Source: Candidatus Niyogibacteria bacterium
GTDB lineage: Bacteria; Patescibacteriota; Minisyncoccia; JACROR01
NCBI GenBank assembly: GCA_016186495.1
Contig: JACPLO010000002.1
Span: 6,857-70,856, forward strand
Length of the DNA stretch: 64,000 nt
Direction of reading: 5' to 3'
Shown: piece after piece, positions 1,098 to 50,604 of the stretch
Numbering within the stretch: position 1 is the stretch's first letter
Layout of the letters: every line of letters starts with the position of its first letter
Notes under the pieces: generated by a model
What the model was told of the DNA's origin: nothing
What the model saw: only the letters and a program-made list of their open reading frames with translations
Databases searched by the model: none
Program-made: the position numbers and the translations under genes

Positions 1098-1115
1098 AAT
1101 GAAAATATTAATTTT

Positions 1116-3186: not shown

Positions 3187-3190
3187 AAAT

Positions 3191-3637: not shown

Positions 3638-3673
3638 AATGCCCCAGAATAAAAATAAAAAATTTATTGGAAA

Positions 3674-4741: not shown

Positions 4742-4798
4742 TTTCAAAGCTTGGAGCGCTGCCATAAGAAAATGAATTTTACAACATTAGTATAAATT

Positions 4799-6007: not shown

Positions 6008-6123
6008 ATAATTTTCAATTTTCATTGAATTTACAATTTAATAATTTACAAACTAACGGGATAAATGAGATAATTAATGAAATAAGGTCGATAAAATAAA
6101 AATAATAAAATATACACGCAGAT

Positions 6124-6618: not shown

Positions 6619-6642
6619 TTATTCTGATTTTCAGGTATTTTA

Positions 6643-6682
6643 AACCTCTCCCTCTGGTTAGCCGGAAGGGGAGGTTTTATGT
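6643..6682 (+). terminator. Rho-independent terminator after pilin gene
   Basis: Stem aacctctccc / ggggaggtt followed by ttttatgtttt, 25 bp after the pilA stop. Confidence 0.6.
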
Positions 6683-7491
6683 TTTGTATTTGGCGGATAA
6701 CAAGTTATTATTTAATTATGGCGGGGATTTTAATTTTTATTTTAGGACTAATCATGGGCAGTTTTCTAAATGTGGTCATCTTTCGGCTGAATACCGGAGA
6801 ATCCGTTGCGAAGGGGCGTTCCCGATGTTTTGCCTGCGGCGCGGAGCTGAAGTGGTTTGAACTTATTCCGATTTTTAGTTTTTTGGTTCAAGCCGGCCGC
6901 TGTCGGGCCTGCCAAAGCAGAATATCTCGGCAATATCCGGCCGTGGAGCTGGCCGTGGCTTTGATTTTTTACGCTTTATATTTAAAATGGCTGGTAATTT
7001 GGCCGCCGAATATTCCGGTGTTTATCTGGTGGCTGGTTTTCTGGTCAATTTTTTTGACGCTGGCGGTTTATGATTTTCATCATAAAATTTTGCCTGATAT
7101 TTTAGTTTATCCTTTAGGAATTATCGCGGTTTTGGGCGGAGCGGTTTTTTTTAAAAAAGATTTTTGGCCGGCTTTGGCGATCGGCGTTTTATTTTTCTTG
7201 TTTTTTGCCGGCCTTTGGCTGGTTTCCAGAGGAAAATGGATGGGGCTGGGGGATGCTAAATTATTTTTCAGCGTCGGCGTTTTTTTAGGCTGGCCTTTGG
7301 CGCTGGTGGCGATGTTTTTTTCTTTTTGGCTTGGCGCTATAATAAGCGGTATCATAGTTATTTTAAAAAGGTCGTTAAATTTAAAAAGCGAGATCCCTTT
7401 CGGCCCTTTTATTTTTTTGGGAGCAATAATTGCTTTTTTCTGGGGGGATCTTGTATTTTCTTGGTATTTAAAAATAATTTTTAACGTATGA
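6679..7491 (+). CDS. pilD: Prepilin leader peptidase / N-methyltransferase PilD (peptidase A24)
   Basis: CxxC...CxxC zinc-finger region (CFACGAEL...CRACQSRI), multiple TM helices, 270 aa. Confidence 0.85.
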   Translation: MFCIWRITSYYLIMAGILIFILGLIMGSFLNVVIFRLNTGESVAKGRSRCFACGAELKWFELIPIFSFLVQAGRCRACQSRISRQYPAVELAVALIFYALYLKWLVIWPPNIPVFIWWLVFWSIFLTLAVYDFHHKILPDILVYPLGIIAVLGGAVFFKKDFWPALAIGVLFFLFFAGLWLVSRGKWMGLGDAKLFFSVGVFLGWPLALVAMFFSFWLGAIISGIIVILKRSLNLKSEIPFGPFIFLGAIIAFFWGDLVFSWYLKIIFNV

Positions 7492-7492
7492 A

Positions 7493-7570
7493 CCCCGTTA
7501 GAAATCTTCATAAATAAGGTTTCAAGCGGGGAAATGATTATGCAAAACAAAAAACAAATTTCTAACGGAG
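7493..7570. repeat. Palindromic repeat unit: ccccgttagaaat...atttctaacggag
   Basis: Inverted copies of the window-wide 9-mer. They flank the start of the 7534 CDS directly after the pilD stop. Confidence 0.7.
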
Positions 7571-7995
7571 TGAATATAAACATAAAAAAAGCTTTTCTCC
7601 AGATTTTTATCGGCGCGATAATTATCGGCGGATTGTTTTTTGTCGGCTTATCGCCGCGAGGCCAGAAATTTTCTTCAAATCCGGATAGCGTTAAGAACGG
7701 AGAAAAAAAATATTTTTTAACGCTTAATTACGGCAACGGAAAAATAAGAAAATTCAGCAGCGAAATGGCGGAGGAAAAGACCAGGGCGTGGAATCTGCTC
7801 CAGCTAGCCTCGGCCCAATCGGCGGTGTCAGTGGAAATTGAAGATGGATTTCTTCCCCGTTCCATTGATGGATTTAAAAACACCGATCAAAACAAATGGG
7901 TTTTATTCGTGAACGGAGCAAGGCAAACAAACGGCCCTTTTGAGGTGTTTGTCAAAAAGGGAGATTTGGTGGAGTTTAAGTATGAAAAACAATAA
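7534..7995 (+). CDS. Hypothetical membrane-anchored protein in pilus operon
   Basis: N-terminal TM then a beta-rich domain. No motif recognised. Codon 10-12 is the repeat-encoded SNG. Confidence 0.5.
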   Translation: MIMQNKKQISNGVNINIKKAFLQIFIGAIIIGGLFFVGLSPRGQKFSSNPDSVKNGEKKYFLTLNYGNGKIRKFSSEMAEEKTRAWNLLQLASAQSAVSVEIEDGFLPRSIDGFKNTDQNKWVLFVNGARQTNGPFEVFVKKGDLVEFKYEKQ

Positions 7996-8626
7996 AATAA
8001 ATTTTTTAAGGAGATTTACCCCATTAAATAGTTGCAAAGCAAATTTAACGGGGTTTACGGTTGTTGAAGTGTTGATTACCATGGGAGTTTTTGCGTTAGT
8101 TAGTTCAATGGTTTTGGCGAATTATCCCAAATTTTCCGAGCGGCTGACTCTGGAACAAACCGCTCAAAAAATCGCTTTATCTTTCCGGGAGGCAAAAATC
8201 CTCTCTTTAACGGTCGGAGAATCTGAAATTGGAACGCGAATTTTTCCCGGTTACGGCGTGCATTTTGACGCCGGTGAAAGCGGAAATAATAAAAGATATT
8301 TGATTTTTTCCGATCTTAACGCCGATAAAAAATATGCGGAGCCGGACGACGGAGAAAAAGATATTTTTGGAATCCAAAGCTCCGCTTTTATTTCAGGAGC
8401 TTGTTTCGGGGAAGAAGACGCCGGCAGTTTAAGCGAATGCCAAAGTTATAATCAAACGAAAATTTTAGATATAGTTTTTACTAGGCCAAAACCCAGCATT
8501 GATTTTTATGACGGCGAAAGAAGCCAGTGGCGAGGTGAGCAGAATGTCGGCATTTTTATCGTTAATCCCGAAGGCGATATTAAAAAAATAATTATCTGGA
8601 AAACCGGGCAGATAATGGTTGAATGA
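7940..8626 (+). CDS. Minor pseudopilin (prepilin-type cleavage/methylation domain)
   Basis: The track ORF starts at 7940; the start is uncertain. The mature end GFTVVEVLITMGVFALVSSM begins at ~8049. An unusually long leader, FTPLNSCKANLTG, is encoded by repeat DNA. Confidence 0.7.
   Translation: MRCLSKREIWWSLSMKNNKINFLRRFTPLNSCKANLTGFTVVEVLITMGVFALVSSMVLANYPKFSERLTLEQTAQKIALSFREAKILSLTVGESEIGTRIFPGYGVHFDAGESGNNKRYLIFSDLNADKKYAEPDDGEKDIFGIQSSAFISGACFGEEDAGSLSECQSYNQTKILDIVFTRPKPSIDFYDGERSQWRGEQNVGIFIVNPEGDIKKIIIWKTGQIMVE
8021..8058. repeat. Palindromic repeat (ccccattaaat...aatttaacgggg) overlapping pseudopilin leader
   Basis: Inverted-repeat pair of a family variant. The right arm encodes the L-T-G-F-T cleavage motif. 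Confidence 0.6.
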
Positions 8627-8640
8627 GATTTTATAATTAA

Positions 8641-8708
8641 TTCAAAAGTCAAAATGCAAAATTCAAAATTTCAATTCAAAATTCAAAAGTTTTATTTTTA
8701 ATTTTCAA
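8641..8708. repeat. AT-rich tandem TTCAAAA heptamer run
   Basis: About 6 direct copies of (a)ttcaaaa upstream of the PilV-like gene. Confidence 0.5.
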
Positions 8709-8710
8709 AT

Positions 8711-9229
8711 ATGGCTTATCCAAAATCCGGCAAAGGTTTCAGCTTATTAGAGACGCTTGTGGCTTTGGCGATTTTAAATGCCGCGATTTTAGGGCCAATC
8801 AGTCTGGCTTATGTCAGCATCCGTTCAGCCAGTTTGTCTCATAACATCACGATTGCCGCTTTTTTAGCCGAGGAAGGAGTGGAATTGGCGCGCAGTCAGC
8901 GCGAAAAAAATATTTACAGCGGCAATGATTGGCTTAATAGCCTTGCCGGTTGCGCGGTTGGCAGTCCTTGCCGAATCGCGACTGCCGCGGACGGCGAAAT
9001 CAGCGTTGTTTCTTGCGGCGGATCATGCGCGCCCCTTAATTATGATTCAGATATCGGTCTCTACTGGTATGAGAGCGGAAATGCTTCAATTTTTACCAGA
9101 AGTTTTACGGTTGAGGAAATAAAAGAAAACAAAGAAGCAAAAGTGACGATGACGGTCAGTTGGAAAGAACGTTTTTTAAGCGGCAATCAAAATATTCAGT
9201 TAGAAAGCCATCTTTCCAATTGGCATTAG
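8711..9229 (+). CDS. Minor pilin, PilV/GspI-like
   Basis: N-terminus GFSLLETLVALAILNAAILGPI. Confidence 0.7.
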   Translation: MAYPKSGKGFSLLETLVALAILNAAILGPISLAYVSIRSASLSHNITIAAFLAEEGVELARSQREKNIYSGNDWLNSLAGCAVGSPCRIATAADGEISVVSCGGSCAPLNYDSDIGLYWYESGNASIFTRSFTVEEIKENKEAKVTMTVSWKERFLSGNQNIQLESHLSNWH

Positions 9230-9235
9230 AAATTT

Positions 9236-9892
9236 ATGGCTGAAGATTTTAAATTTAAAAAATTAAGGCGCGGGTCGCGGTTTCTAACGGGGTTTACCCC
9301 AGTTAAATCTTTCGCTTCGCGAAATTTAACGGGGTTTACCCCGTTAAATAGTTGCGAAGCAAATTTAACGGGGTTTACTCTGCTGGAGATGATTGTGTCT
9401 TTGGGAGTTTTTTCCGCGGCGATTTTGATTATTTTAGGGGCTATTTTGTCCATTAATGACGCTCAAAAGAAAATGATTAATATTCAGGCCGTTGAAGATA
9501 ATTTGCGTTTCGCTTTGGACGCAATGTCCAGAGAGATTCGGACCGGATCTGTCTATAATTGCGAAGGAGGAGGTTCGGCGTCCGATTGTCCGGCCGGATC
9601 GCCAATTTTCGCTTTTGATTCCATCAGCGGGGGAAGGATTATTTATCGTTGGAACAGCGTTAATAAAAGCATTGAAGAATCGGAAGACAATGGCTCAACT
9701 TATTATCCGATAACCGGCAACGATCTGAAAATAGAAAAATTAACTTTTTATGTTTTTGGAACAAGAACGATTGATTTTAAACAGCCGCGAGTGACAATGA
9801 TTATAAAAGCATTTGCCGGAGAAGAAAGAGTTAAAACTCGCTCGGAATTCAATATTCAAACCACGGTTACGCAAAGAGAATTAGATTCATAA
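9236..9892 (+). CDS. Minor pilin, PilW/GspJ-like, with triplicated leader
   Basis: Mature end GFTLLEMIVSLGVFSAAILIIL. The N-terminal extension contains three LTGFT repeats encoded by tandem palindromic repeats. Confidence 0.65.
   Translation: MAEDFKFKKLRRGSRFLTGFTPVKSFASRNLTGFTPLNSCEANLTGFTLLEMIVSLGVFSAAILIILGAILSINDAQKKMINIQAVEDNLRFALDAMSREIRTGSVYNCEGGGSASDCPAGSPIFAFDSISGGRIIYRWNSVNKSIEESEDNGSTYYPITGNDLKIEKLTFYVFGTRTIDFKQPRVTMIIKAFAGEERVKTRSEFNIQTTVTQRELDS
9284..9378. repeat. Tandem palindromic repeat array (taacgggg-ttta-cccc(a)gttaaat x3)
   Basis: Three nested hairpin units of the TAACGGGG family inside the 5' end of the PilW-like ORF. Confidence 0.75.
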
Positions 9893-17435: not shown

Positions 17436-17491
17436 ACCCCGTTAGAAATCGCGAACGCAATGTTCGCGTTCTATTTCTAACGGGGTAAAAC
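17429..17491. repeat. Long palindromic repeat: ggggtaaaccccgttagaaat-cgcgaacgcaatgttcgcg-atttctaacggggtaaaac
   Basis: Near-perfect 60-bp hairpin built from the family 9-mer. The stop codon of the upstream gene lies inside it. Confidence 0.8.
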
Positions 17492-25264: not shown

Positions 25265-26707
25265 ATGTTTTTTAGAAAATTTCAAACTTTTGTTTTAATT
25301 TTTATTTTTATAACGGGCGCTTTTTTAAGCGTCCGTTCCGCGTTTTCTCAAAGCCAAACCGTTGACCCCGTTAGAGGTAAGATTCCGGAGGAATCTGCCG
25401 GTTTGCCGTTAGCAAATCGGACCTCTAACGGGGTTGATCCGGCCGCGATTTTGGAACAACGGGCTAAACTGCTGGAAGAAGAAAAGGAAGTGGAAGAACA
25501 GATTGGCGGATTGATGGTTATTATTCAAAATAAACAAGGGGAAACCGCCAGTTTGGAGCGCGATATCGCCATTATTAACGCCGAGATTAAAAAAGCAAAA
25601 CTGGCCATTAAAGCCAGAACTCTGACGATTGATAATCTTAATTCATCAATCGGAGAAAAATCTAAATTTATTGTTAAACTTTTAGACAAACAAGAGCGCG
25701 AAAAAGAATCTTTAGCCGAGCTTTTGCGGCAATTGAATGAATTTGGAGACACCACTTTAGTGGAGATTATTTTGGGTTATGAAAATCTTTCCGATTTTTT
25801 CGTGAATATGGATTCTTTGGATTTTCTTCAAAAATTCATTCAGGATTCTTTTGACGAAATTAAAATAACAAAAGAGAATACTGAAGAAGAGAAGTCTATT
25901 CTGGAAGAAAAAAAGAAAGAAGAATCAGAACTCCGTTATTTGCAGGAGCTTGAGAAAAAAAGAACTGAAGAAAGAGAAAAAGAAAAGAAAAAGATTTTAG
26001 AAATTACGCGCGGCGAAGAAAATGAATACCAAAAGCTTTTGGCCAGTCGGAAGAAAGATATTGCTCAAATCAGAAATCAACTTTTTATTTTGCGTGGTTC
26101 GGACGCCATTCCTTTTGAAAAAGCCATTGAATACGCCAATATCTCATTTAAGGCAACAGGCGTGCGCCCAGCTTTTCTTTTGGGAATAATTGCCGAAGAA
26201 TCCGAATTGGGCGCTAATTTAGGGTCCGGAAATTGGAAAACTGACATGTACGATTGTTATCGCCGAATCGGCTACAATAAGTCGGCGGAAAAACAAAAAA
26301 CCGCTTTTTTAGCGATTATTTCAGAATTATTTATTGACAGTCCTGATTCAAGGCCGGTTTCCAAAGCGCCGTATTACGGCTGCGGCGGAGCCATGGGGCC
26401 GGCGCAGTTTATGCCCGCTACTTGGTGGGATCCGGTTGGCAATACGGGATATAAAAAATTGATCGCTCAATATACCGGCCATAATCCTCCGGACCCGTGG
26501 AGTCCGGAAGACGCTTTTATGGCCGCGGCGCTTTTGCTTAAAGACAACGGCGCGGCGGCCGGAGGATTTACCGCGGAACGCCGGGCAGCTTTAAGATATT
26601 TAGCCGGCGGCAATTGGAATAAGCCGGCTTACGCTTTTTACGGCGACGACGTGATGGCTTTGGCTAAAAAATATCAAGATCAGATTGATATTTTAACGGA
26701 ATCTTAA
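25265..26707 (+). CDS. Secreted coiled-coil protein with C-terminal lytic-transglycosylase (SLT/lysozyme-like) domain
   Basis: Signal/TM, long coiled coil, then EESELG (catalytic E-S) and [13 protein letters not shown] motifs. The track ORF 25022 is a 5' over-extension. Confidence 0.55.
25365..25434. repeat. Palindromic repeat inserted in-frame in CDS (accccgttagaggt...acctctaacggggt)
   Basis: 14-bp perfect inverted repeats 42 bp apart. It encodes DPVRG...TSNGVDP in the linker of the transglycosylase protein. Confidence 0.8.
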
Positions 26708-28691: not shown

Positions 28692-28732
28692 AGGCAATAA
28701 GGAAAAAAAGCAAAAAATTCTGATAAAAAAAT

Positions 28733-28862
28733 GAATCCCGTTAGAGATTAAAGACTTTATTTTTTAACGGAATTTAAAAATATCTTTAATAATGATAATT
28801 AGAAATTATAAGAATAATTTACGGAAATGATTAAAATCATTTCCTATCTCTAACGGGATGAA
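28733..28862. repeat. 130-bp palindromic element, copy A (TIR atcccgttagagat / atctctaacgggat)
   Basis: About 90% identical to copies at 43461 and 50474. It has an internal perfect hairpin, ggaaatgatt-aaaa-tcatttcc. The tsf ATG at 28858 lies in the right TIR. Confidence 0.9.
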
Positions 28863-29453: not shown

Positions 29454-29876
29454 ATGTTTTTTTTCTTAATTTTAATTATTGTTTCTTTTTTTGGAATTTT
29501 AACGACTATTTTCAGGCATTGGCCGCGCGTCCGTTCTTTGCCGCCGGAAGAGATTTCTTCGGTTTTAGCGGGGAGCCGTTCATTTTTGGACGGATTTATT
29601 TTTGGTTTTCTTATTCCGTCTTTCCGGCGCGTTCAGAGCAGTTGCGTGCCGATATTTTACGTTACTTCGGAAAAAACCGTCAGGCGGTCGCGCCTTTTAA
29701 TCCTTAAAATAGAGAGCCGCCTTCAAAAAATAACCGACCATTTGAAAGGCAGGCGGATTTTGAACGTCCAAAACAAAAATAATGGCCGCAATTATGAATA
29801 CTGGCAGGAGATAAACGAACATCAAAACGGTTTAAAAGAGGAAATAAAAGAAGGAGAAAAACCTAAGCCGAGGTAG
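29454..29876 (+). CDS. Hypothetical membrane-anchored protein
   Basis: N-terminal TM. No family recognised. Confidence 0.4.
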   Translation: MFFFLILIIVSFFGILTTIFRHWPRVRSLPPEEISSVLAGSRSFLDGFIFGFLIPSFRRVQSSCVPIFYVTSEKTVRRSRLLILKIESRLQKITDHLKGRRILNVQNKNNGRNYEYWQEINEHQNGLKEEIKEGEKPKPR

Positions 29877-29899
29877 CTCAAAAGCAGAGCAATGGTTTT
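29867..29899 (+). pseudogene. tRNA-like 5' half (acceptor + D-arm), partner of 3' half at 30016-30048
   Basis: GCCGAGG-TA-GCTC-AAAAGCA-GAGC-A-ATGGT... aligns to positions 1-33 of the adjacent tRNA-Thr. Its acceptor strand pairs 6 of 7 with the downstream CCTCGAC. Confidence 0.45.
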
Positions 29900-29900
29900 G

Positions 29901-29918
29901 CCCGCCCCGTTAGAAATG
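29901..29918. repeat. Left 18-bp inverted repeat ccccgttagaaatgccga flanking tRNA-Thr
   Basis: Exact reverse complement of 29993-30010. Confidence 0.85.
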
Positions 29919-29989
29919 CCGACGTAGCTCAGTGGTAGAGCAACGGTTTTGTAAACCGTAGGTCGTGGGTTCAAATCCCTCCGTCGGCT
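29918..29989 (+). tRNA. tRNA-Thr (TGT)
   Basis: Hand fold: acceptor GCCGACG/CGTCGGC, D-stem GCTC/GAGC, anticodon stem ACGGT/ACCGT with loop TTTGTAA, T-loop TTCAAAT. 72 nt. Confidence 0.8.
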
Positions 29990-29992
29990 CAT

Positions 29993-30010
29993 CGGCATTT
30001 CTAACGGGGT
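29993..30010. repeat. Right 18-bp inverted repeat tcggcatttctaacgggg flanking tRNA-Thr
   Basis: Exact reverse complement of 29901-29918. Confidence 0.85.
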
Positions 30011-30015
30011 AAACA

Positions 30016-30048
30016 GGTTGGAGGTTCGAATCTTCTCCTCGACTCCAA
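30016..30048 (+). pseudogene. tRNA-like 3' half (variable loop, T-arm, acceptor, encoded CCA)
   Basis: AGGTT-GGAGG-TTCGAAT-CTTCT-CCTCGAC-T-CCA. The T-stem pairs with two G-U wobbles. The acceptor is complementary to the 5' half at 29867. Confidence 0.45.
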
Positions 30049-30109
30049 GATTAGATTTTTTACAATCATAATTCATGCGGCTTGCTTATTTATCAATGGA
30101 GATTAAAAA

Positions 30110-30877
30110 ATGTTAATATTATGTTATGAAAGTTGTTCTGCTAACGTTCAAGTCCTCATGAAAAAACCGCGGCACATTATTTATCATTCACGGATACATC
30201 TTTTAATAACTATCGGAATAATTTTTATTCCTTTTGTTTTTCTTTTACTCTTTTCGCAATATGCAAAAATTAGCACCGCGAAGCTCTTCGCCAATCTTTT
30301 TGTTTCTTTCTTAAGACTGCTCGCCGCATATCTTATCGCGGCTGTACTTGCTTGGACGAGCGCAGTCTTACTTTATCGGGGGCGGCGAGCTCTTGTCGCG
30401 CTTCCTATTTTTGATGTCTTGCAGAGTTTTCCGACTTTCGCGGCCTTGCCGCTCGCAGTTTATCTCTGGGGGCCGTCAGCAATAACCGTTATCGTATTTT
30501 TAATTTTGACTATTATCTGGCCGATTTTTTTCTCGCTTATCAGTTCTTTAAAGCTTATGCGTAAAGATTGGGAAGAAGCCGCGGCCATTGCGGGACTTCG
30601 CGGTTTTGATTATCTTCGCCGGTTTCTCTGGCCAATCAGCCTTCCCGGCCTTATCACCGGGTCAATTATTGGCCTGGGCGAAGGATGGGAAGCTTTGGTT
30701 GCCACGGAAATAATCGTAGCGGCGCGGACCGGACTCGGCAGTTTTTTCTCTCTCTATGCTCAAGACACCTTCATAACTGTGTTTGGAATAATTGGGCTTC
30801 TTCTCTTTATATTCAGCGTTAATAAAATATTTTGGCTTCCGCTTCTTGAGCGAAGCCATCGTTTGATGGAAGAATAA
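30110..30877 (+). CDS. ABC transporter permease (NitT/TauT-type)
   Basis: 6 TM helices and the EAA-like loop (EEAAAIAGL). Confidence 0.8.
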   Translation: MLILCYESCSANVQVLMKKPRHIIYHSRIHLLITIGIIFIPFVFLLLFSQYAKISTAKLFANLFVSFLRLLAAYLIAAVLAWTSAVLLYRGRRALVALPIFDVLQSFPTFAALPLAVYLWGPSAITVIVFLILTIIWPIFFSLISSLKLMRKDWEEAAAIAGLRGFDYLRRFLWPISLPGLITGSIIGLGEGWEALVATEIIVAARTGLGSFFSLYAQDTFITVFGIIGLLLFIFSVNKIFWLPLLERSHRLMEE

Positions 30878-30890
30878 ATGGAAGAATAAT

Positions 30891-31475
30891 ATGAACTCGA
30901 TTATCTTTTCATATCTTACACATTGGCGAAGTTTGGGGTATGCGCTTGTATTTATCGGGATGATAATTGAAGGAGACATTATTTTGTTTACTTCTTCGTT
31001 TCTTGCGCATCAAGGTTTTTTTAATATCGGCGATTTAATGTTCTTTGCATTGGCCGGCGTATTAATAGGAGATTTACTGTGGTATTTGCTCGGCTGCCTG
31101 ATGGATAATCATATTAATAATAATTCCAATTTATCTTTTGTAGCCCGCTGGATAGCAAGAATCGCGAAGCCGCTTGACGCTCATCTTCTTAATCGTTCAT
31201 ACCGCACTATTTTTATTTCAAAATTTGCATTCGGCTTTCATCATGCGCTCTTAACGCGTTTAGGCATGCTTCGCTTTTCTTGGAAAAAATTTATTAAAAT
31301 TGATTTTATTTCCGCTGTGCCTTGGATGATTATAGTCGGCGGGCTCGGATATTTTTCTGGAGCAGCTTTTTTTGCTTCAAAACATTATCTTCGGTTAGCG
31401 GAAACAGGATTATTAATTACGCTTGTTCTTTTTCTTGCTATTGAACATTTCGTAATAAAGAAACTGAAACTTTGA
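30891..31475 (+). CDS. DedA/VTT-family membrane protein
   Basis: IGMIIEGDIILF...G motif region and a multi-TM topology. Confidence 0.55.
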   Translation: MNSIIFSYLTHWRSLGYALVFIGMIIEGDIILFTSSFLAHQGFFNIGDLMFFALAGVLIGDLLWYLLGCLMDNHINNNSNLSFVARWIARIAKPLDAHLLNRSYRTIFISKFAFGFHHALLTRLGMLRFSWKKFIKIDFISAVPWMIIVGGLGYFSGAAFFASKHYLRLAETGLLITLVLFLAIEHFVIKKLKL

Positions 31476-31476
31476 T

Positions 31477-32238
31477 ATGAATCCTACGCTCATTTTAAAA
31501 AATATTTCAAAAAATTTTCAGGAAGATCGCGGGCAGAAACTCCCTGTGCTTAAAGGCATTGATCTTGAAATAGCCGCTGGAGAATTTTTCATAATCCTCG
31601 GGCCCTCGGGGTCAGGCAAGTCAACGCTTCTTCGCATTATGAGCGGCCTTGAATCGGAGTATGAAGGAAAAATCGGATACGGCAGCGGCATTACGCCGTC
31701 TGATTTCAGCTTTGTATTTCAGCAATTTGCGCTCTTCCCGTGGCTTACCGTATTTGAAAATATCGCCATCGGGCTCCGAGCGCGGCATACGCCGGAAAAC
31801 ATTATTAAAGAACGGGTAGAAAATGAACTCAAACGGTTTAATCTAAAGCATTTTGCCGATTCTTTCCCAAAAGAATTATCGGGAGGGATGAAACAGCGCG
31901 TTGGCATCGCCCGGGCATTAACAACCGATCCTAAGATTATTTTTATGGACGAACCATTCTCGGAGCTTGATTCTTTCACCGCTGAAGAGCTTCGCAAAGA
32001 ATTTTCGCATATTTGGAAAGGGCGCCAGCTTGTTGAAGCTGGCGCCCGCCAAACCATTATTATGGTGACCCATCTCATAGAGGAAGCGCTGGAGCTTGCT
32101 GACAGAATCGCCGTGCTTACCCCGCGGCCCGGAAAAATAGAAAGGATTATTACGAACACTCTCGCCAAGCCGCGCAATAAACGATCTCCGGAATTCTTTT
32201 GCCTTGAAGATGAGATTTATAAATTAATAAGGCCGTAA
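31477..32238 (+). CDS. ABC transporter ATP-binding protein
   Basis: Walker A GPSGSGKST, signature LSGGMKQR, and Walker B IIFMDEP. Confidence 0.88.
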   Translation: MNPTLILKNISKNFQEDRGQKLPVLKGIDLEIAAGEFFIILGPSGSGKSTLLRIMSGLESEYEGKIGYGSGITPSDFSFVFQQFALFPWLTVFENIAIGLRARHTPENIIKERVENELKRFNLKHFADSFPKELSGGMKQRVGIARALTTDPKIIFMDEPFSELDSFTAEELRKEFSHIWKGRQLVEAGARQTIIMVTHLIEEALELADRIAVLTPRPGKIERIITNTLAKPRNKRSPEFFCLEDEIYKLIRP

Positions 32239-32250: not shown

Positions 32251-32934
32251 ATGAAAAAATACATAATTTCAGCCATAATTTTAATTTTGGGCTTAAGCGC
32301 GTATTATTTTATTTATCAGCTAAAAATCGGAGATAATAATATGAAGGAAGCAAACGAAAATTCTAAGGAGGATTTGAATCCCGTTAAAAATAACGAGTTG
32401 AGCGATGTTGAGAATAGCGCCGCGAAACAGCGTAAAATTTCTAACGGGATGAATCCGCGCGCGACGCTGGAAACGAGCATGGGTAATATTACGATAGAAC
32501 TTTATCCTAAAGATGCGCCGAAAACCGTGGCTAATTTTATCGGTTTAGCTAAAAAAGGATATTATAACGGCGTTATTTTTCATCGGGTGGTAAGCGGTTT
32601 TGTCATTCAGGGAGGCGATCCGACCGGCACGGGCGCCGGCGGCAATTCCATTTACGGCGGCGATTTTGAAGACGAACTTGATTTAAATACGGAAAGTTAT
32701 CAGCGCGGATATTTAAAAGGCGCGGTCGCGATGGCTAATCGCGGGCCTGACACTAATTCCAGCCAATTTTTTATTATGCTTGAAGATAAATCTTTGCCTA
32801 AGCTTTACACTATTTTCGGCAAAGTGGCGGAAGGAGATGATGTCGTCCAAAATATCGGCCGGGTGAAAGTAGGCGCTAATGACAAGCCATTGGCGCCGGT
32901 TATCATAAATAAAATTATTGTTGAAGGAAATTAG
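32251..32934 (+). CDS. Peptidyl-prolyl cis-trans isomerase (cyclophilin type), membrane-anchored
   Basis: GYYNGVIFHRVV...GGDPTGTGAGG cyclophilin core, with an N-terminal TM. Confidence 0.88.
   Translation: MKKYIISAIILILGLSAYYFIYQLKIGDNNMKEANENSKEDLNPVKNNELSDVENSAAKQRKISNGMNPRATLETSMGNITIELYPKDAPKTVANFIGLAKKGYYNGVIFHRVVSGFVIQGGDPTGTGAGGNSIYGGDFEDELDLNTESYQRGYLKGAVAMANRGPDTNSSQFFIMLEDKSLPKLYTIFGKVAEGDDVVQNIGRVKVGANDKPLAPVIINKIIVEGN
32375..32456. repeat. Palindromic repeat inserted in-frame in cyclophilin linker (ttgaatcccgttaaaaat...aatttctaacgggatgaat)
   Basis: The ends match the 130-bp element termini. It encodes NPVKNN...ISNGMNP between the TM anchor and the PPIase domain. Confidence 0.8.
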
Positions 32935-33014
32935 TCTTATTTCTAACGGGATTGATTTATTTTTTTTATAATGATATTTTTTAAATAAATAAGTTCATTT
33001 ATATCGGAGGCGAT

Positions 33015-33717: not shown

Positions 33718-34992
33718 ATGACAACTTCTAACGGGGTAAAACAAAATATCGTTATTTTGGGAGCGGGGTTTGCCGGCGTGAGAGCGGCTTTGGATTTAGC
33801 CAGATACCTGCCTTCGGAAGCGAAAATTACCCTGATTGACCGGAATTCTTTCCATTCATACACGCCGGCTTATTACGAAGTGGCGGCCGCTTTTTTGCCG
33901 GAAAAAGAAGAGCTTTCCCGGGAACAATTTGAATTATTGGCTTCAACCGCCGCCATTCCTCTTAAAACTATTTTTGAAAAATATAAAAATGTGGAATTGG
34001 CAATCGGCGAAGTGGCGGATATTTTGCCTGAAAAAAATCAGATTGAGATAAAATCGGGCGGAAAATACCGCTATGATTGGCTGATCATCGCTTTGGGAAG
34101 CGAACAAGATTATTTCGGGTTATCGGAGATCAAAAAATATGTTTATACTTTAAAAAGCCTGGAAGGCGCGCTTAATTTGCGGAACGGCATTGATGAATTA
34201 TTTTGGCGCCGGGCTAAGCATGAAAAAATAAAAATAATAGTGGCGGGCGGCGGATTTTTGGGAAGCGAGATAGCGGCCGAACTTGCCGGTTATGTCAAAA
34301 AACTTAATCGCCAACATTCTCGGCCAAAAGAAAATTGCGAAATAAGCATTATTGAAGGAGGACAGAATGTTTTAGGAAACGCCAGCGAATGGGCGCGGAA
34401 AAAAGCGGCCGGCCGGTTGGAAAAATTGGGCGTAAAAATTTCAACAAACAGTTTAATCAGCAAAGTAACCGAAGAAAAATTGATTTTGAAAGACGGCCAA
34501 ACTGTTTCTTATGATATTTTAATTTGGACAGTCGGCGTTCGGGCTTGCGCGATTACCGGCCAACTGGTCGGCCAAGGGCAAGAATTAAAGGGCAAAGGAT
34601 GCCTGGCCGTTGACCGATATTTGCGCGTCATTCCCTATGAAAATATTTTTGCCGCCGGAGATATTGCTTACGCGTCCGATTACGAAATAAATACTTTTAT
34701 GCCGATGACCGCTCAAGTCGCTATTCTTCACGGCCAATATATCGCTTACACGATAAAAAGAATGATTCGCAAACGCCGCCCGTTCCCTTATTGGCCGCAC
34801 CAAAATAGATTTAGCATCGCGCTTGGCGGAAAATACGCGCTTTTTGACGGAAAGCGGTTTAAATTCTCCGGTTTTTTCGCCTGGCTTTTGAAACATTTGA
34901 CGACTTTAAAATATTTCGCGGGCATTCTTCCTTTTTATCGCGCTTTTTTTATCTGGCAACGGGGTTTTAAGATATATAAAGATAACGATTAA
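33718..34992 (+). CDS. FAD-dependent pyridine nucleotide-disulfide oxidoreductase (NDH-2-like)
   Basis: N-terminal IVILGAGFAGV and a second IIVAGGGFLGSE dinucleotide fold. The start codon region ATGACAACTTCTAACGGGGT is a repeat half-site encoding MTTSNGV. Confidence 0.7.
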   Translation: MTTSNGVKQNIVILGAGFAGVRAALDLARYLPSEAKITLIDRNSFHSYTPAYYEVAAAFLPEKEELSREQFELLASTAAIPLKTIFEKYKNVELAIGEVADILPEKNQIEIKSGGKYRYDWLIIALGSEQDYFGLSEIKKYVYTLKSLEGALNLRNGIDELFWRRAKHEKIKIIVAGGGFLGSEIAAELAGYVKKLNRQHSRPKENCEISIIEGGQNVLGNASEWARKKAAGRLEKLGVKISTNSLISKVTEEKLILKDGQTVSYDILIWTVGVRACAITGQLVGQGQELKGKGCLAVDRYLRVIPYENIFAAGDIAYASDYEINTFMPMTAQVAILHGQYIAYTIKRMIRKRRPFPYWPHQNRFSIALGGKYALFDGKRFKFSGFFAWLLKHLTTLKYFAGILPFYRAFFIWQRGFKIYKDND

Positions 34993-37088: not shown

Positions 37089-37433
37089 ATGGAACAAAAA
37101 ATAAATCCCGTTAAAAGTTTTATAGCAAAAAAAGTATTAACTAAAAAGAAAGCCGAAGGCGAATTTGTCGACAAAAGTATGGATAACGACAAGCTCGGCA
37201 GAACTTCTAACGGGATAAAAAAAATTTTAGAAACTGAAATCGCGCCGATGCTCGCGATGCATGGCGGAAGAGTGGAATTTGTCAGTTTTGAAGAGGGGAC
37301 GGTAAAAATTCGGCTTAAAGGCGCTTGCCATGGCTGCGCGCTTTCCGAATTAACCTTGAAAGAAGGCGTGGAAAGAATTCTTAAAGAAAAAATCCGCAAA
37401 ATAAAAAGCGTGGAAAATGTTGAACCCCGTTAG
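37089..37433 (+). CDS. NifU C-terminal-domain (Nfu-type) Fe-S carrier with repeat-encoded N-terminal extension
   Basis: MHGGRVEFVSFEEGTVKIRLKGACHGC CxxC motif. The first ~42 codons are encoded by a palindromic repeat. Confidence 0.78.
   Translation: MEQKINPVKSFIAKKVLTKKKAEGEFVDKSMDNDKLGRTSNGIKKILETEIAPMLAMHGGRVEFVSFEEGTVKIRLKGACHGCALSELTLKEGVERILKEKIRKIKSVENVEPR
37103..37216. repeat. Palindromic repeat in-frame at 5' end of nfu (aaatcccgttaaaagtt...aacttctaacgggat)
   Basis: 15-bp inverted repeats ~100 bp apart. It encodes NPVKSF...RTSNGIKK. Confidence 0.8.
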
Positions 37434-37537
37434 AAGTTCAACCATGCTTTATTATATTAAAATCAAAAGTAAGCAAAGTCGCCTAACGGCTCACTTTAAT
37501 GTAAATTTTTATTATTATGACAACTTCTAATGGGGTG
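37422..37537. repeat. Palindromic repeat spanning nfu stop to nifS2 start (gaaccccgttagaagtt...aacttctaatggggtg)
   Basis: The left arm contains the nfu TAG stop. The right arm overlaps the nifS2 ATGACAACTTCTAATGGGGTG start. Confidence 0.8.
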
Positions 37538-38716
37538 AATAAATCGCGATCTAAATATATTTATTTTGATTATGCCGCCACTACGCCGGTTGACGCGGAA
37601 GTTTTGTCCGCGATGGAGCCCTATTTCAAGAAAAAATCCGGCAATCCCAGTTCTTTGCATTTAATGGGCCAAGAAGCGAGGCGGGCCGCGGATGATGCGC
37701 GCGAACAAATGAAAAATTTTTTAAATGCTTCGTCTCTTCGGGAAATTATTTTTACCGGCTCCGCGACCGAAGCCAATAATTTGGCGATTTTTGGCGTGAT
37801 TAAAGCGATGAGATATTGGCCGGCTAAATTGCCGCATATTATCACCACGGCGATTGAACATAAATCAGCGTTGGCGCCATGCCAAGAATTGGAAAAAAAG
37901 GGGGAAGCAGAAGTCACTTATTTAAAACCAAACAAAGAAGGGTTTATTAATGCTGAAGAATTAAGGCAAGCCCTGCGTCCGGATACCGCACTGGTTTCCG
38001 TAATGTACGTCAACAATGAAATCGGGACTATTCAGCCCATCGCGGAAATTTCCGAAATAATCAAAGAATACCGGAAAAATAATTTAAAAATAACTCCGTT
38101 TTTTCATTGCGACGCCGTTCAAGCGGCCGGATTTTTGGACATGGACGCGCAAAAATTAGGCGTGGATTTGATGGTTGTTTCCGGTCATAAGATTTATGGG
38201 CCAAAAGGCATTGGCGCGTTGTATGTCCGGGAAGGCGTGAAAATTCAACCCTTGGCTTACGGCGGAGAACAGGAATACGGAATAAGGCCCGGCACGGAAG
38301 CCGTGTCTTTAATCGTCGGTTTAGGCAAAGCAGCGGAAATAACCGCCAGATGGAAATTTGATAAAAATAATCTGGAAAAAATTTTAAAGTTGAGAAATTA
38401 TTTGATTGACGAATTGTTAAAAATCCCGGGAATCCAGTTAAACGGCTCGCGTGAAAATCGTTTGCCTAATAACGCAAATATCGCTTTAACCGGCTATAAT
38501 ATGGATTCTTTGCTGATTAATCTTTTTGAAAAAGGAATCTGCGTTTCTTCCGGCGCGGCTTGCGGCGCCAGAGGGCGTAACCCTTCGTATGTTATTTTTG
38601 CGATCAGCGGCGACCGGAAACGGGCGATTTCCAGTTTGCGCATTACTTTAGGGCGGGAAACAAACAAAAAAGAAATAGATTTATTTTTAGAAAAATTGAT
38701 TGGCACTCTTGCATAA
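37517..38716 (+). CDS. Cysteine desulfurase paralogue (class V aminotransferase)
   Basis: PLP-Lys SGHKIYGPKGIG and a SSGAACG active-site loop. It shares a ~100-bp near-identical DNA tract with the 35056 gene. Confidence 0.9.
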   Translation: MTTSNGVNKSRSKYIYFDYAATTPVDAEVLSAMEPYFKKKSGNPSSLHLMGQEARRAADDAREQMKNFLNASSLREIIFTGSATEANNLAIFGVIKAMRYWPAKLPHIITTAIEHKSALAPCQELEKKGEAEVTYLKPNKEGFINAEELRQALRPDTALVSVMYVNNEIGTIQPIAEISEIIKEYRKNNLKITPFFHCDAVQAAGFLDMDAQKLGVDLMVVSGHKIYGPKGIGALYVREGVKIQPLAYGGEQEYGIRPGTEAVSLIVGLGKAAEITARWKFDKNNLEKILKLRNYLIDELLKIPGIQLNGSRENRLPNNANIALTGYNMDSLLINLFEKGICVSSGAACGARGRNPSYVIFAISGDRKRAISSLRITLGRETNKKEIDLFLEKLIGTLA

Positions 38717-43460: not shown

Positions 43461-43595
43461 AATGAATCCCGTTAGAGATTAAAACCTTTATTTTTTAACG
43501 GAATTTAAAAATAACATCAATGAAAATAATTAGAATTACAAGAATAATTCACGGAAATGATTTTAATCATTTCCTATCTCTAACGGGATGAATTT
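43461..43595. repeat. 130-bp palindromic element, copy B
   Basis: About 90% identical to copies A and C. It sits between the scpA stop and scpB. The scpB ATG at 43588 is inside the right TIR. Confidence 0.9.
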
Positions 43596-44217
43596 ATCCA
43601 ACATTATAGAATCAATTTTGTTTATTTACGGCGAGCCGATGAAAATATCGCGGCTGGCTGAAATTTTAAACAAAAAAGAAAACGAAGTGGAAGAGGCTTT
43701 GGCGGTTTTGGAAAATAATTTAGCGGAACGGGGATTAAAATTAATTAAAAACAACGGCGAAGCAACGCTGGCCACTGTTTCCGAAGCTTCCGAATTTATC
43801 CAAGGGCTTTTAAAAGAAGAATTCAGCGGTAAATTAACCAAAGCGGCTTTAGAAACTTTGGCGATTGTCGCATATTCAGGCCCTTTGCCGCGCGCGGAAA
43901 TTGATTTTATCAGGGGAGTAAATTCTTCTTTCATTTTGCGGAATTTGCTGATCAGCGGGCTGGTGGAAAGGGAAATTAATCCTAAAGACCGGAGAACTTT
44001 TATTTATAAGCCGTCAATGGATTTTTTGCGGTTTTTAGGCCTTAGTAAATTAGAAGATTTGCCGGAATACGGCGAATTTCGGAAAAGTTTGGAAGATTTT
44101 TCGTCCCTCACGCTTAATTTAAACGTGAGGGGCGAAGAAGAAATAAATCCCGTTAGAAGCCGTGATCGCTTTATGAAACAGCCGCAATCTAATGAAAATC
44201 AAAATTCATCAGAATAA
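43588..44217 (+). CDS. scpB: Segregation and condensation protein B
   Basis: Winged-helix ScpB motifs (IESILFIYGEP...), adjacent to scpA. Confidence 0.85.
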   Translation: MNLSNIIESILFIYGEPMKISRLAEILNKKENEVEEALAVLENNLAERGLKLIKNNGEATLATVSEASEFIQGLLKEEFSGKLTKAALETLAIVAYSGPLPRAEIDFIRGVNSSFILRNLLISGLVEREINPKDRRTFIYKPSMDFLRFLGLSKLEDLPEYGEFRKSLEDFSSLTLNLNVRGEEEINPVRSRDRFMKQPQSNENQNSSE

Positions 44218-44268
44218 AATTAAATTTCTATCAGATCGCCGATCACAATCTGCTTCTAACGGGATAAA
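44147..44268. repeat. Palindromic repeat spanning scpB 3' end (aaatcccgttagaagc...gcttctaacgggat)
   Basis: 14-bp inverted repeats ~105 bp apart with an internal gtgatcg/cgatcac inverted repeat. The last ~23 scpB codons (INPVRSRD...) are repeat-encoded. Confidence 0.75.
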
Positions 44269-49779: not shown

Positions 49780-50478
49780 GTGCCTTACCCATTTTTATTG
49801 CAATCCCATATTAAATCCGGCCGATTGGCTCACGGATATTTGTTGATCGGTTCAATTGAACAGGCAAGAAAAATCGCGGCGGAAGCGGCCGGCCGGCTGC
49901 TTGAAAATTTCAATCAAAACCATCCTGATTTTTTTGAATTTTGCGGCGAATCTTTCGGCATCAGCGAGGCGAGAGAGTTAATCAGAAAAACTTATCTGAA
50001 AGCATTCGGCGCCGGCAACAAAAAAATATTTTTTATCGGCGCGGAAACTATAACTTTGGAAGCTGCCAGCGCGCTTTTAAAAACAATGGAAGATTTTTCA
50101 GACGCGGCGCATTTTTTTCTTTCCGTTCTTTCGGAGGAAAATTTGCCGGTTACTCTTTGTTCGCGATTGGTTAAAATCCGGATGGCTTTTGAGCCGGAAG
50201 CGGGCTTCACGGACTATTGGCGGAATTTTGAAAAGAAACCTCATATTGATAAAATGGAATATCTTAAAAAAATAGCGGATAAAAAAGATGAAAAAGAACA
50301 AAAAAAAATTTTGGACGCCCGCGAAATTTATTTTGAAGATATTTTAAAAAATAGCGGCAATGACGAACAGCGAAAAAAATCTTTGGAAAATTTGGAAAAT
50401 CTGGTTTTCGCGAGAGAATTAATGGACGGTCCGGCCGCTTATCCTAAATCTATTTTAGAATATCTGATATTAACATGA
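49780..50478 (+). CDS. DNA polymerase III delta'-like clamp-loader subunit (short)
   Basis: N-terminus HGYLLIGS... resembles HolB, but at 232 aa it is truncated relative to canonical delta'. Confidence 0.5.
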   Translation: MPYPFLLQSHIKSGRLAHGYLLIGSIEQARKIAAEAAGRLLENFNQNHPDFFEFCGESFGISEARELIRKTYLKAFGAGNKKIFFIGAETITLEAASALLKTMEDFSDAAHFFLSVLSEENLPVTLCSRLVKIRMAFEPEAGFTDYWRNFEKKPHIDKMEYLKKIADKKDEKEQKKILDAREIYFEDILKNSGNDEQRKKSLENLENLVFARELMDGPAAYPKSILEYLILT

Positions 50479-50604
50479 ATCCCGTTAGAGATTAAAACCT
50501 TTATTTTTTAACGGAATTTAAAAATATCATCAATGAAGATAATTGGAAATTACAAGAATAATTTACGGAAATGATTTTAATCATTTCCTATCTCTAACAG
50601 GATG
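50474..50604. repeat. 130-bp palindromic element, copy C
   Basis: About 90% identical to copies A and B. The holB-like TGA stop lies in the left TIR (aacATGAatcccg). The right TIR is slightly degenerate (taacagg). Confidence 0.9.

What the first reader, a model, noticed from the sequence alone, without database searches (positions are those of the whole stretch)
29867..30048. tRNA-Thr nested between perfect 18-bp inverted repeats inside a split second tRNA-like gene
A complete tRNA-Thr(UGU) at 29918-29989 is bracketed by exact 18-bp inverted repeats (ccccgttagaaatgccga / tcggcatttctaacgggg) carrying the family 9-mer. Immediately outside are a tRNA 5' half (acceptor + D-arm, 29867-29899) and a tRNA 3' half (T-arm, acceptor, encoded CCA, 30016-30048). 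Their acceptor strands are mutually complementary (GCCGAGG/CCTCGAC, 6 of 7) and carry compensatory changes relative to the inner tRNA. Either a palindromic element carrying a tRNA inserted into the anticodon region of a paralogous tRNA, or this is an unusual intervening-sequence or permuted-tRNA arrangement.
Basis: seen in the sequence. Interest (0 to 1): 0.8.

Follow-up and report, generated by a model that had tools for sequence, protein, structure and literature searches.

The report
tRNA gene nested inside broken tRNA
In an uncultured groundwater bacterium, the usual threonine tRNA gene has been split at its anticodon by a small palindromic mobile element that carries a complete working copy of the same tRNA; I found no precedent for this, but it is not a new way of making tRNA.

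Summary
A canonical tRNA-Thr(UGU) lies at 29918-29989. It sits between perfect 18-nt inverted repeats, which are flanked by the two halves of a second tRNA-Thr(UGU).

Six related Patescibacteria/Niyogibacteria loci carry one uninterrupted tRNA-Thr at this syntenic position (tsf, small ORF, tRNA). Five of them align with the window up to base 29900, the G35 of the outer gene. So the outer halves are the resident gene. It is now a pseudogene: it lacks the D-loop GG, has a C2-A71 mismatch, and is missing 3 nt of the anticodon stem.

The repeats belong to a lineage-specific family of about 13 short palindromic elements in the window (arms YCCCGTTARAnnn). These have 4-nt target duplications (TGAA, TAAA, TTGA) and empty sites in relatives. 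Several sit in frame inside genes, much like Rickettsia palindromic elements.

The tRNA-bearing copy is atypical. Its arms are 18 nt long, it has no left duplication, and its cargo keeps the leader (TTAGAAAT) and trailer (CAT) seen at the orthologous locus of other species.

Both junction halves recur in eight independent assemblies. The intron, split-tRNA and permuted-tRNA readings are not supported. No transposase lies in or beside the window. How the element acquired the tRNA remains inferred.

The parts
29867..29900 (+). Outer tRNA-Thr(UGU) 5' half: acceptor, D arm, 5' anticodon stem and loop up to G35. This is the resident gene, now a pseudogene. Its D loop reads AAAAGCA where relatives have AATGGCA.
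   Evidence: It is 32/34 identical to the 5' halves of the intact tRNAs in L005 and L006. Homology of L004-L008 to the window runs from tsf and ends exactly at 29900.
29901..29904 (+). CCCG filler at the left junction, where a TAAA target duplication would be expected. Unexplained.
   Evidence: Every other complete element has identical 4-nt flanks. This one has CCCG on the left and TAAA on the right.
29905..29922 (+). Left arm of the palindrome. It consists of the 13-nt family terminus CCCCGTTAGAAAT (29905-29917) plus GCCGA, the first 5 nt of the inner tRNA. TTAGAAAT is also the native leader of tRNA-Thr in L001 and L004.
29918..29989 (+). Inner tRNA-Thr(UGU): complete, canonical, no encoded CCA. 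Presumed to be the working gene. It has one U50-U64 mismatch in the T stem.
   Evidence: ARAGORN; Rfam RF00005 at 76.5 bits against a gathering score of 29
29990..29991 (+). CA trailer. The trailer reads CAT, as in L001.
29992..30009 (+). Right arm TCGGCATTTCTAACGGGG, the exact reverse complement of the left arm.
   Evidence: I1
30010..30047 (+). Outer tRNA-Thr 3' half. It comprises TAAAC (positions 36-40; TAAA is the family's target 4-mer), then AGGTT, the T arm GGAGG/TTCGAAT/CTTCT, the acceptor strand CCTCGAC, discriminator T and CCA. The CAT of the 3' anticodon stem is missing.
   Evidence: Alignment to L004 and L005. Restoring CAT makes ARAGORN call tRNA-Thr(tgt) at default settings.
29454..29876 (+). 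Conserved 140-aa membrane ORF downstream of tsf. Its stop codon TAG lies inside the outer tRNA (29874-29876). This anchors the synteny and probably supplies transcription of the tRNA.
17437..17485 (.). Family member with the same 13-nt arms (CCCCGTTAGAAAT), flanked by TAAA/TAAA, just after the stop codon of a dehydrogenase gene.
25366..25433 (.). Family member flanked by TTGA/TTGA. It is a 72-nt in-frame insertion in the SLT-domain ORF. L001 has the empty site.
28736..28858 (.). Family member of the 123-nt subfamily, which also has copies at 43467-43588 and about 50479-50600. It is flanked by TGAA/TGAA at the tsf start codon and is absent in L001, L004 and L005.
32379..32449 (.). Family member flanked by TGAA/TGAA, in frame in the N-terminal part of the cyclophilin gene. 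L001 and L004 have the empty site.
37106..37215 (.). Family member flanked by TAAA/TAAA, in frame (38 codons) in the N-terminus of NifU. L007 has the empty site.

Best explanation
The locus is the resident tRNA-Thr(UGU) gene of this Niyogibacteria-like bacterium, broken between G35 and U36 of its anticodon loop by a 109-nt insertion (29901-30009). The insertion is one copy of a lineage-specific family of short palindromic, MITE-like mobile elements. Where other copies have 23-97 nt of unrelated filler, this one has a complete tRNA-Thr(UGU) gene.

Shown:
- The outer halves are orthologous to the single intact tRNA at this site in relatives.
- The arms belong to a repeat family with target-site duplications and empty sites in relatives.
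- The inner gene is a canonical tRNA.
- The outer gene can no longer fold into a valid tRNA.

Inferred:
(1) The inner tRNA is the functional gene. It would be transcribed with the tsf-ORF unit through the dead 5' half, cut out by RNase P and a 3' nuclease, and completed by the CCA-adding enzyme. The 13-18 bp arm helix would act only as a leader-trailer stem.
(2) The element arrived in the TAAA of the anticodon loop, the family's preferred 4-mer, already carrying its cargo. No cell ever lacked tRNA-Thr(UGU), and the resident copy then decayed.
(3) The cargo was captured from an orthologous tRNA-Thr locus of the L001/L004 type. Capture would have used short homologies between the inner edges of the arms and the tRNA's leader (TTAGAAAT) and trailer (CATTT). 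The right arm was later extended to match GCCGA by palindrome-templated correction.
For: Synteny: tsf, 140-aa ORF and one uninterrupted tRNA-Thr(tgt) are found together in L001-L008.

Breakpoint: BLAST homology of L004-L008 to the window ends exactly at 29900. The outer 5' half and its CCTAA leader match L005, the sister taxon.

Outer gene: the joined outer sequence aligns with the L004/L005/L006 type at 60/73 positions. It is called tRNA-Thr once the missing CAT is restored.

Family: there are 26 motif hits in the window against about 2 expected. There are none in any locus of a related species. The other complete copies have 13-nt arms and identical 4-nt flanks. Empty sites in L001 and L007 were confirmed for four copies.

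Cargo: it has 8 nt of leader and the CAT trailer, identical to L001.

Reality of the arrangement: both junction halves were recovered in eight independent Logan contigs from seven sequencing runs.

Inner tRNA: 76.5 bits against Rfam tRNA.
Against: - The left junction has CCCG instead of a second TAAA. This is the only complete copy without a matching duplication, so the insertion may not have been a canonical transposition.
- No transposase or integrase gene lies in the 64-kb window or about 8 kb of extra flank. Mobility of the family is therefore inferred only from duplications and empty sites.
- No second cargo-bearing copy and no donor locus was found.
- The inner tRNA is only slightly closer to L001 (61/73) than to L005 (59/73).
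- L005, the sister taxon, has a resident tRNA with only 4 of 7 acceptor pairs. The resident copy may therefore already have been dispensable. In that case, an insertion of the same tRNA species would be partly coincidence rather than the product of selection.
- No independent contig spans the whole palindrome.
Confidence: 0.7

Rival explanations
1. Two-step formation in place. A plain family element first inserted into the anticodon loop of a resident tRNA-Thr that was already redundant. Its interior was later replaced by a tRNA-Thr fragment, taken from a second locus or from imported DNA of a relative. The replacement occurred by microhomology-mediated recombination or template switching at the arm edges.
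For: The cargo leader TTAGAAAT overlaps the arm by 8 nt, and the L001 trailer CATTT overlaps the right arm. The L005 resident tRNA is already degenerate, which suggests redundancy in the common ancestor. The window encodes a type IV pilus and competence-like machinery. The left junction is irregular.
Against: It needs two rare events at the same 100 bp. Nothing would direct the capture to this particular copy out of the dozen or more in the window alone. No plain element in a tRNA was seen in any relative.
Confidence: 0.2
2. A functional intervening sequence, split tRNA or permuted tRNA. The inner tRNA would be excised, and the outer halves, held together by the 18-bp helix, would be joined or would act as a two-piece tRNA.
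For: The outer halves can form acceptor, D and T arms and end in an encoded CCA. The arm helix would hold them together.
Against: The organism is bacterial, with RF, S2 and EF-Ts genes. There is no group I or other intron match. ARAGORN intron mode finds nothing. The joined halves lack 3 nt of the anticodon stem and the D-loop GG, and carry C2-A71 at a ThrRS identity pair. The arrangement is unique to one strain lineage, whereas six related loci have a plain gene.
Confidence: 0.02
3. Footprint of a tRNA-targeting integrative island. The outer halves would be att-site duplications left by site-specific integration of the three-gene ABC/VTT block downstream.
For: The block 30110-32238 lies between tRNA-Thr and the cyclophilin gene in the window but is absent from that position in L001 and L004. 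The region downstream of this tRNA differs in every lineage.
Against: There is no integrase in the window. Integration leaves an intact tRNA at one end and a partial direct repeat at the far end of the island, not two halves nested around a complete gene. The flanks of the inner gene are family arms, not att repeats.
Confidence: 0.03
4. Assembly chimera. Two loci that share the inner tRNA sequence were joined wrongly in the MAG.
For: All eight independent contigs break inside the inner tRNA at 29941-29973, and none spans it.
Against: The two halves carry exactly complementary 18-nt arms and the complementary halves of one tRNA. That is expected only if they are one structure. The breaks are centred on the palindrome midpoint (about 29957), as expected for a hairpin or a conserved tRNA k-mer in a k=31 graph. 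The MAG contig spans the whole structure.
Confidence: 0.04

Closest known systems
Rickettsia palindromic elements (RPEs; Ogata et al. 2000, from my own knowledge; mentioned in PMC1458961 and PMC1166351, which the paper search listed but I did not read)
   Same: They are short palindromic repeats present in many copies in a small genome. They insert into intergenic DNA and, in frame, into protein-coding genes, and are tolerated there as extra peptide segments. I also recall, unchecked, an RPE inside an RNA gene.
   Different: RPEs are conserved along their whole length and carry no gene. Here only the 13-nt arms are shared, the interiors are unrelated, and one copy carries a whole tRNA. Clear 4-nt duplications are seen here. 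There is no sequence similarity.
Bacterial MITEs such as Neisseria Correia elements, and IS-derived MITEs generally (own knowledge)
   Same: Terminal inverted repeats, short target duplication, non-coding, 50-150 bp, lineage-specific bursts, frequent position at gene starts and ends.
   Different: No parent IS with matching ends was found. Cargo of a complete functional gene is not a known MITE feature. The tRNA copy lacks one target duplication.
tRNA-targeting integrative elements and prophages that carry a replacement tRNA 3' end (own knowledge; examples described in PMC3119063)
   Same: A mobile DNA interrupts a tRNA gene yet leaves the cell with a working copy, because the element brings the replacement sequence.
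   Different: Those elements use an integrase and replace only the 3' part, by recombination within the gene. That leaves one hybrid gene plus a distant partial repeat. Here a whole second gene is nested inside the first, and no integrase is present.
Bacterial group I introns in tRNA anticodon loops, and archaeal BHB introns or split tRNAs (own knowledge)
   Same: An interruption in the anticodon loop, with a helix that could bring the two exon halves together.
   Different: There is no ribozyme core and no BHB motif. The host is bacterial, the exons cannot form a valid tRNA, and the arrangement is not conserved.

Membership tests
MITE-like / palindromic repeat element | Short, non-coding, with terminal inverted repeats | tested here: met
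   Elements of 35-123 nt share 13-nt arms YCCCGTTARAnnn. The tRNA-bearing copy is 105 nt with 18-nt arms.
MITE-like / palindromic repeat element | Many copies in the genome, more than chance | tested here: met
   26 arm motifs in 64 kb against about 2 expected; about 13 elements plus solo arms.
MITE-like / palindromic repeat element | Target-site duplication | tested here: inconclusive
   Met for the family: TGAA, TAAA or TTGA on both sides of the other complete copies. Not met for the tRNA-bearing copy itself, which has CCCG on the left and TAAA on the right.
MITE-like / palindromic repeat element | Presence/absence polymorphism with empty sites in relatives | tested here: met
   Empty sites exist for the copies at 25366, 28736, 32379 and 37106. 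For the tRNA site, the anticodon loop is intact in L004, L005 and L006. The motif is absent from all relatives' loci.
MITE-like / palindromic repeat element | A related autonomous element encoding a transposase with the same ends | tested here: inconclusive
   There is no transposase among the 68 ORFs of the window or in the extra flanks. The rest of the genome could not be searched.
Functional tRNA (inner gene) | Cloverleaf and conserved positions scoring above the Rfam threshold | tested here: met
   76.5 bits against a threshold of 29. G1-C72, C2-G71 and the UGU anticodon are present. Expression was not tested.
Functional tRNA (outer gene, halves joined) | Valid cloverleaf after removal of the insert | tested here: not met
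   Not called by ARAGORN at default or in intron mode. It is called only at a lowered threshold, with a defective anticodon arm.
Group I intron in a tRNA | Conserved ribozyme core and a match to Rfam intron families | tested here: not met
   No such match at the gathering threshold or at E up to 10. The insert is 109 nt and is mostly a tRNA.
Archaeal-type intron / split / permuted tRNA | Archaeal or eukaryotic host with a splicing endonuclease; exons that form a tRNA | tested here: not met
   The gene set is bacterial and the taxonomy is Patescibacteria. The exons are defective. The BHB motif was not formally scored.
Integrase-mediated island at a tRNA gene | Integrase gene, and a partial tRNA direct repeat at the far end of the island | tested here: not met
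   No integrase was found. The geometry is nested rather than flanking.

The most novel reading that the evidence does not exclude
This palindromic family can pick up a complete host gene between its arms and move it. The copy studied here would then be a self-complementing insertion: the element could settle in an essential tRNA gene only because it carried a working replacement. If so, such elements would be vehicles for swapping tRNA genes between related Patescibacteria. L001 already shows a tRNA-Thr at this locus that differs from its neighbour's far more than the flanking genes do. A more radical version is that the family's arms themselves derive from the tRNA-Thr leader TTAGAAAT, which would make this a tRNA-derived repeat family in bacteria.
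Probability: 0.25. Interest if true: 0.7.

Novelty: new variant of a known kind. Interest (0 to 1): 0.5.

Why it matters
It would be a clear bacterial case of a miniature palindromic element carrying a complete, apparently functional gene. It would also be a case of a tRNA gene replaced from within by a copy nested in its own anticodon loop. In addition, it shows that a member of the Candidate Phyla Radiation hosts an active family of palindromic elements that insert in frame into housekeeping genes. As far as I know and could search, that behaviour is known mainly from Rickettsia. For annotation, it is a warning that tRNA halves next to a good tRNA may be the resident gene, and that the good one may be the newcomer. 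It does not reveal a new RNA-processing pathway.

Tried and rejected
1. ARAGORN with introns of 0-200 nt on 29800-30120 returned only the inner tRNA.
2. An Rfam scan at E up to 10 gave weak hits to MtlS, sX4 and Plastid-ycf2. These are artefacts of the palindrome plus the tRNA, and all score far below their gathering thresholds.
3. Viral-contig scans for the outer 5' and 3' halves found nothing.
4. A viral-contig scan for the arm-tRNA junction 16-mer gave three chance hits inside unrelated coding DNA.
5. Viral-contig scans for the inner tRNA gave no hit for its core. Five hits to its 3' end were ordinary tRNA-Thr genes of unrelated phages, so no donor was identified.
6. I looked for a transposase or integrase by running all 68 ORFs of at least 80 aa against Pfam, and by inspecting about 8 kb of extra flank. 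None was found.
7. Relatives of the downstream ABC permease lie in unrelated contexts without tRNA-Thr, so they say nothing about this locus.
8. I searched for closer relatives with an intermediate state using the ORF and tsf proteins. Only the same strain and species about 12-17% divergent exist in the databases.
9. DNA-uptake-sequence and attC-site readings of the repeat family were considered and rejected. The copies have target duplications, empty sites and whole-element insertions, and the order of the core motifs is opposite to attC.
10. Interiors of the elements were compared all against all. Only the three 122-123-nt copies are related.
11. Six successful literature searches (plus one malformed query) found no description of this family or of a tRNA-carrying MITE.

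Full report
**What is in the sequence**

Bases 29867-30047 read, in order:
- a tRNA 5' half, GCCGAGG TA GCTC AAAAGCA GAGC A ATGGT TTTG (29867-29900);
- CCCG (29901-29904);
- the left arm CCCCGTTAGAAATGCCGA (29905-29922), whose last five bases are also the start of a tRNA;
- a complete tRNA-Thr(UGU) (29918-29989);
- CA (29990-29991);
- the right arm TCGGCATTTCTAACGGGG (29992-30009);
- a tRNA 3' half, TAAAC AGGTT GGAGG TTCGAAT CTTCT CCTCGAC T CCA (30010-30047).

ARAGORN and Rfam both call the inner gene; Rfam scores it at 76.5 bits against a threshold of 29. The arms are 18 nt long and perfectly complementary. The 18-mer is far over-represented: 4 matches with up to 3 mismatches, against 0.06 expected.

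**Is it an assembly artefact?**

The window comes from a Candidatus Niyogibacteria MAG. Contigs assembled independently from public runs carry the junctions.
- Three end at 29941-29952 after ORF, outer 5' half, CCCG, left arm and inner 5' part.
- Five begin at 29950-29973 and continue through inner 3' part, TCA, right arm, outer 3' half and the ABC permease. Four have 0 mismatches over up to 4.9 kb. The fifth has 15 mismatches in 1.1 kb and so represents a second strain.

Both junctions are therefore real. None of these contigs crosses the middle of the palindrome. I attribute the breaks to the hairpin, or to conserved tRNA k-mers in a k=31 assembly graph. A residual possibility of two separate loci remains.

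**Which gene is the resident one?**

The order tsf, 140-aa membrane ORF, tRNA-Thr(UGU) is conserved in L001, L002, L003, L004/L007/L008, L005 and L006. Each of these has a single uninterrupted tRNA.

BLAST of these loci against the window shows that homology of L004-L008 runs from tsf through the ORF into the outer 5' half. It stops exactly at 29900, the G35 of the outer gene.

L005 is the sister of the window in a neighbour-joining tree of tsf plus ORF. It shares the CCTAA leader and the GCCGAGG acceptor. L005 and L006 read GCCGAGGTAGCTCAATGGCAGAGCAATGGTTTTGTAAACCATAGGTTG....

The joined outer halves match L004 and L005 at 60/73 positions, and the inner tRNA at only 54/73. So the outer halves are the resident orthologue, split between G35 and U36.

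**The outer gene is a pseudogene**

- Its D loop has AA where G18 G19 should be.
- A71 breaks the C2-G71 pair.
- Three nucleotides (CAT) of the 3' anticodon stem are missing.

ARAGORN does not call the joined halves at default settings or in intron mode. It finds them only at a lowered threshold, with a defective anticodon arm. Restoring CAT alone gives a default tRNA-Thr(tgt) call.

**What the arms are**

CCCGTTARA occurs 26 times in the window against about 2 expected. It does not occur at all in any locus of a related species. The hits resolve into about 13 short elements (35-123 nt) plus a few solo arms.

All complete copies other than the tRNA-bearing one share these features:
- 13-nt arms YCCCGTTARAnnn;
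- interiors that are unrelated to each other, except for three 122-123-nt copies;
- the same four bases on both sides: TGAA, TAAA or TTGA.

Relatives have the corresponding empty sites with one copy of the 4-mer. For example, L001 has AAACCGTTGATCC at the 25366 element, and L007 has GGAACAAAAAATCAAAAAAATT at the 37106 element.

Several copies lie in frame inside genes and add 13-38 residues. These are the SLT-domain protein, the cyclophilin, NifU, and a prepilin leader in which the LTGFT motif is tripled. Others sit exactly on start or stop codons, because the target contains TGA, TAA or ATGA.

This is the behaviour of a MITE-like family. It most resembles Rickettsia palindromic elements, with no sequence relationship to them. 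No transposase gene is present in the window or its immediate extensions.

**The tRNA-bearing copy**

Its right flank is TAAA. That is both a family target 4-mer and positions 36-39 of the resident anticodon loop. This fits a normal insertion into UUUUG|UAAA.

The copy is unusual in three ways.
- It is the only one with a gene inside.
- It is the only one whose arms are perfect over 18 nt. The extra five pairs join the start of the tRNA (GCCGA) to a TCGGC placed two bases after the discriminator (T-C-A-TCGGC).
- It is the only complete copy without a matching left duplication, having CCCG instead of TAAA.

The eight bases before the inner tRNA, TTAGAAAT, are part of the family arm. They are also identical to the native leader of tRNA-Thr in L001 and L004 (GATTAGAAAT), where they contain the stop codon of the upstream ORF. 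Those species' loci contain no copy of the repeat family. The trailer CAT also matches L001.

An 8-nt coincidence at exactly this position is unlikely. By my estimate the chance is about 1e-4 or less.

I infer that the cargo was taken, with a little of its leader and trailer, from an orthologous locus of that type. The join would have been made where the leader and the arm are alike, and on the other side where CATTT meets ATTTC. The extra TCGGC would have arisen later by palindrome-templated correction. This part is inference. The inner tRNA is only marginally closer to L001 (61/73) than to L005 (59/73), and no donor was found.

**How it most likely works now**

The inner gene has the features of a working bacterial tRNA-Thr: G1-C72, C2-G71 and the UGU anticodon. 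It has one U50-U64 mismatch and no encoded CCA.

In relatives the tRNA abuts the ORF with no obvious promoter. The promoter scan here gives nothing convincing upstream of it. The inner gene is therefore probably transcribed with tsf-ORF, through the dead 5' half, and released by RNase P and a 3' nuclease.

Thermodynamic folding favours the 18-19 bp arm helix over the acceptor stem (-73.1 kcal/mol, z = -5.1). The arms may therefore form a leader-trailer stem that has to be opened or cut first. None of this was tested.

The outer halves have no plausible function.

**Why the same tRNA species?**

There are two readings.
- If the resident gene was the only tRNA-Thr(UGU), only an element carrying a replacement could survive there.
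- The resident tRNA of L005 has only 4 of 7 acceptor pairs. This hints that a second copy already existed in the common ancestor, which would make the resident copy expendable and the match partly coincidental.

L001's tRNA differs from L004's at 17 of 73 positions, although their flanks differ by 12%. So tRNA-Thr at this locus has been replaced at least once elsewhere in the clade.

**Rivals**

- Formation in place in two steps cannot be excluded (0.2).
- A functional intron, split tRNA or permuted tRNA is essentially excluded (0.02).
- An integrase-type att footprint does not fit the geometry, and no integrase is present (0.03).
- An assembly chimera is unlikely (0.04).

**Novelty and verdict**

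The components are known kinds: a MITE/RPE-like element, a tRNA pseudogene and a tRNA gene. The combination is what is unusual: a miniature palindromic element with a complete tRNA as cargo, nested in the anticodon loop of the resident orthologue. Six successful full-text searches (a seventh was malformed and errored) found no description of it, and I know of none.

I rate it a new variant of a known kind, of moderate interest (0.5). The descriptive core is well supported. The history of how the cargo was acquired is not.

Noticed in passing
window 7493-7570, 9296-9376, 17437-17485, 25366-25433, 28736-28858, 32379-32449, 37106-37215, 37425-37535, 43467-43588, 44148-44264, about 50479-50600: A lineage-specific family of palindromic elements with arms YCCCGTTARAnnn and 4-nt duplications. 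Several are inserted in frame in housekeeping genes (SLT-domain protein, cyclophilin, NifU), adding peptides that start NPV(K/R) and end (T/I)SNG. This is RPE-like behaviour in a CPR bacterium.
   Followed up: yes
window 9236-9400: A prepilin gene has a leader in which LTGFT, the prepilin-peptidase motif, occurs three times. Two tandem 42- and 39-nt elements sit in frame in the leader. A paralogue at about 8020-8080 has a similar leader (…NLTGFTVVE).
   Followed up: partly
window 33718-33745 and 37517-37540: Two unrelated genes (a pyridine-nucleotide oxidoreductase and an aminotransferase) both begin ATGACAACTTCTAAYGGGG (MTTSNG). This is the right end of a family element, so their annotated starts and N-termini seem to be supplied by the element. 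L007 has a different N-terminus (MNFNNARAK).
   Followed up: partly
window 28732-28756, 43463-43487, 50475-50499: The 122-123-nt subfamily creates a mini-ORF, ATGAATCCCGTTAGAGATTAA (MNPVRD*), at its left end. It regenerates the true start codon (tsf, scpB) in the right duplication.
   Followed up: no
L005 1611-1686: In the sister species, the tRNA-Thr at this locus has a 5' acceptor strand GCCGAGG but a 3' strand CGCCAGC, giving only 4 of 7 pairs. It is followed by unrelated DNA and a tRNA-Tyr. It looks like a hybrid or decaying gene, so the resident copy may have been dispensable before the insertion studied here.
   Followed up: partly
L001 6455-6529 versus L004 1706-1780: Two closely related species (12% divergence in tsf plus ORF) share the leader GATTAGAAAT, but their tRNA-Thr genes differ at 17 of 73 positions. 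This suggests that the tRNA at this locus was replaced in one of them.
   Followed up: partly
window 30110-32238: An ABC permease, a VTT-domain protein and an ABC ATPase lie between tRNA-Thr and the cyclophilin gene. In L001 and L004 the cyclophilin gene follows the tRNA directly. Homologues of the permease occur in unrelated contexts, one of them (L017) next to a large serine recombinase, AbiEii and RadC.
   Followed up: partly
window 29941-29973 (ends of L012-L016 and L020-L022): All eight independent short-read contigs stop within 33 nt of the palindrome centre inside the inner tRNA. Either hairpin-related coverage loss is responsible, or the inner tRNA sequence occurs in a second context in those samples.
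   Followed up: partly
window 32936-32952: A solo right arm (TTATTTCTAACGGGA followed by TTGA) lies just after the cyclophilin stop codon, with no recognisable left partner.
   Followed up: no
window 549-9892: A type IV pilus cluster: PilO-like, PilB and PilT ATPases, PilC, prepilin peptidase and several pilins. It is possibly the DNA-uptake machinery typical of CPR bacteria, and so relevant to the idea of imported tRNA DNA.
   Followed up: no
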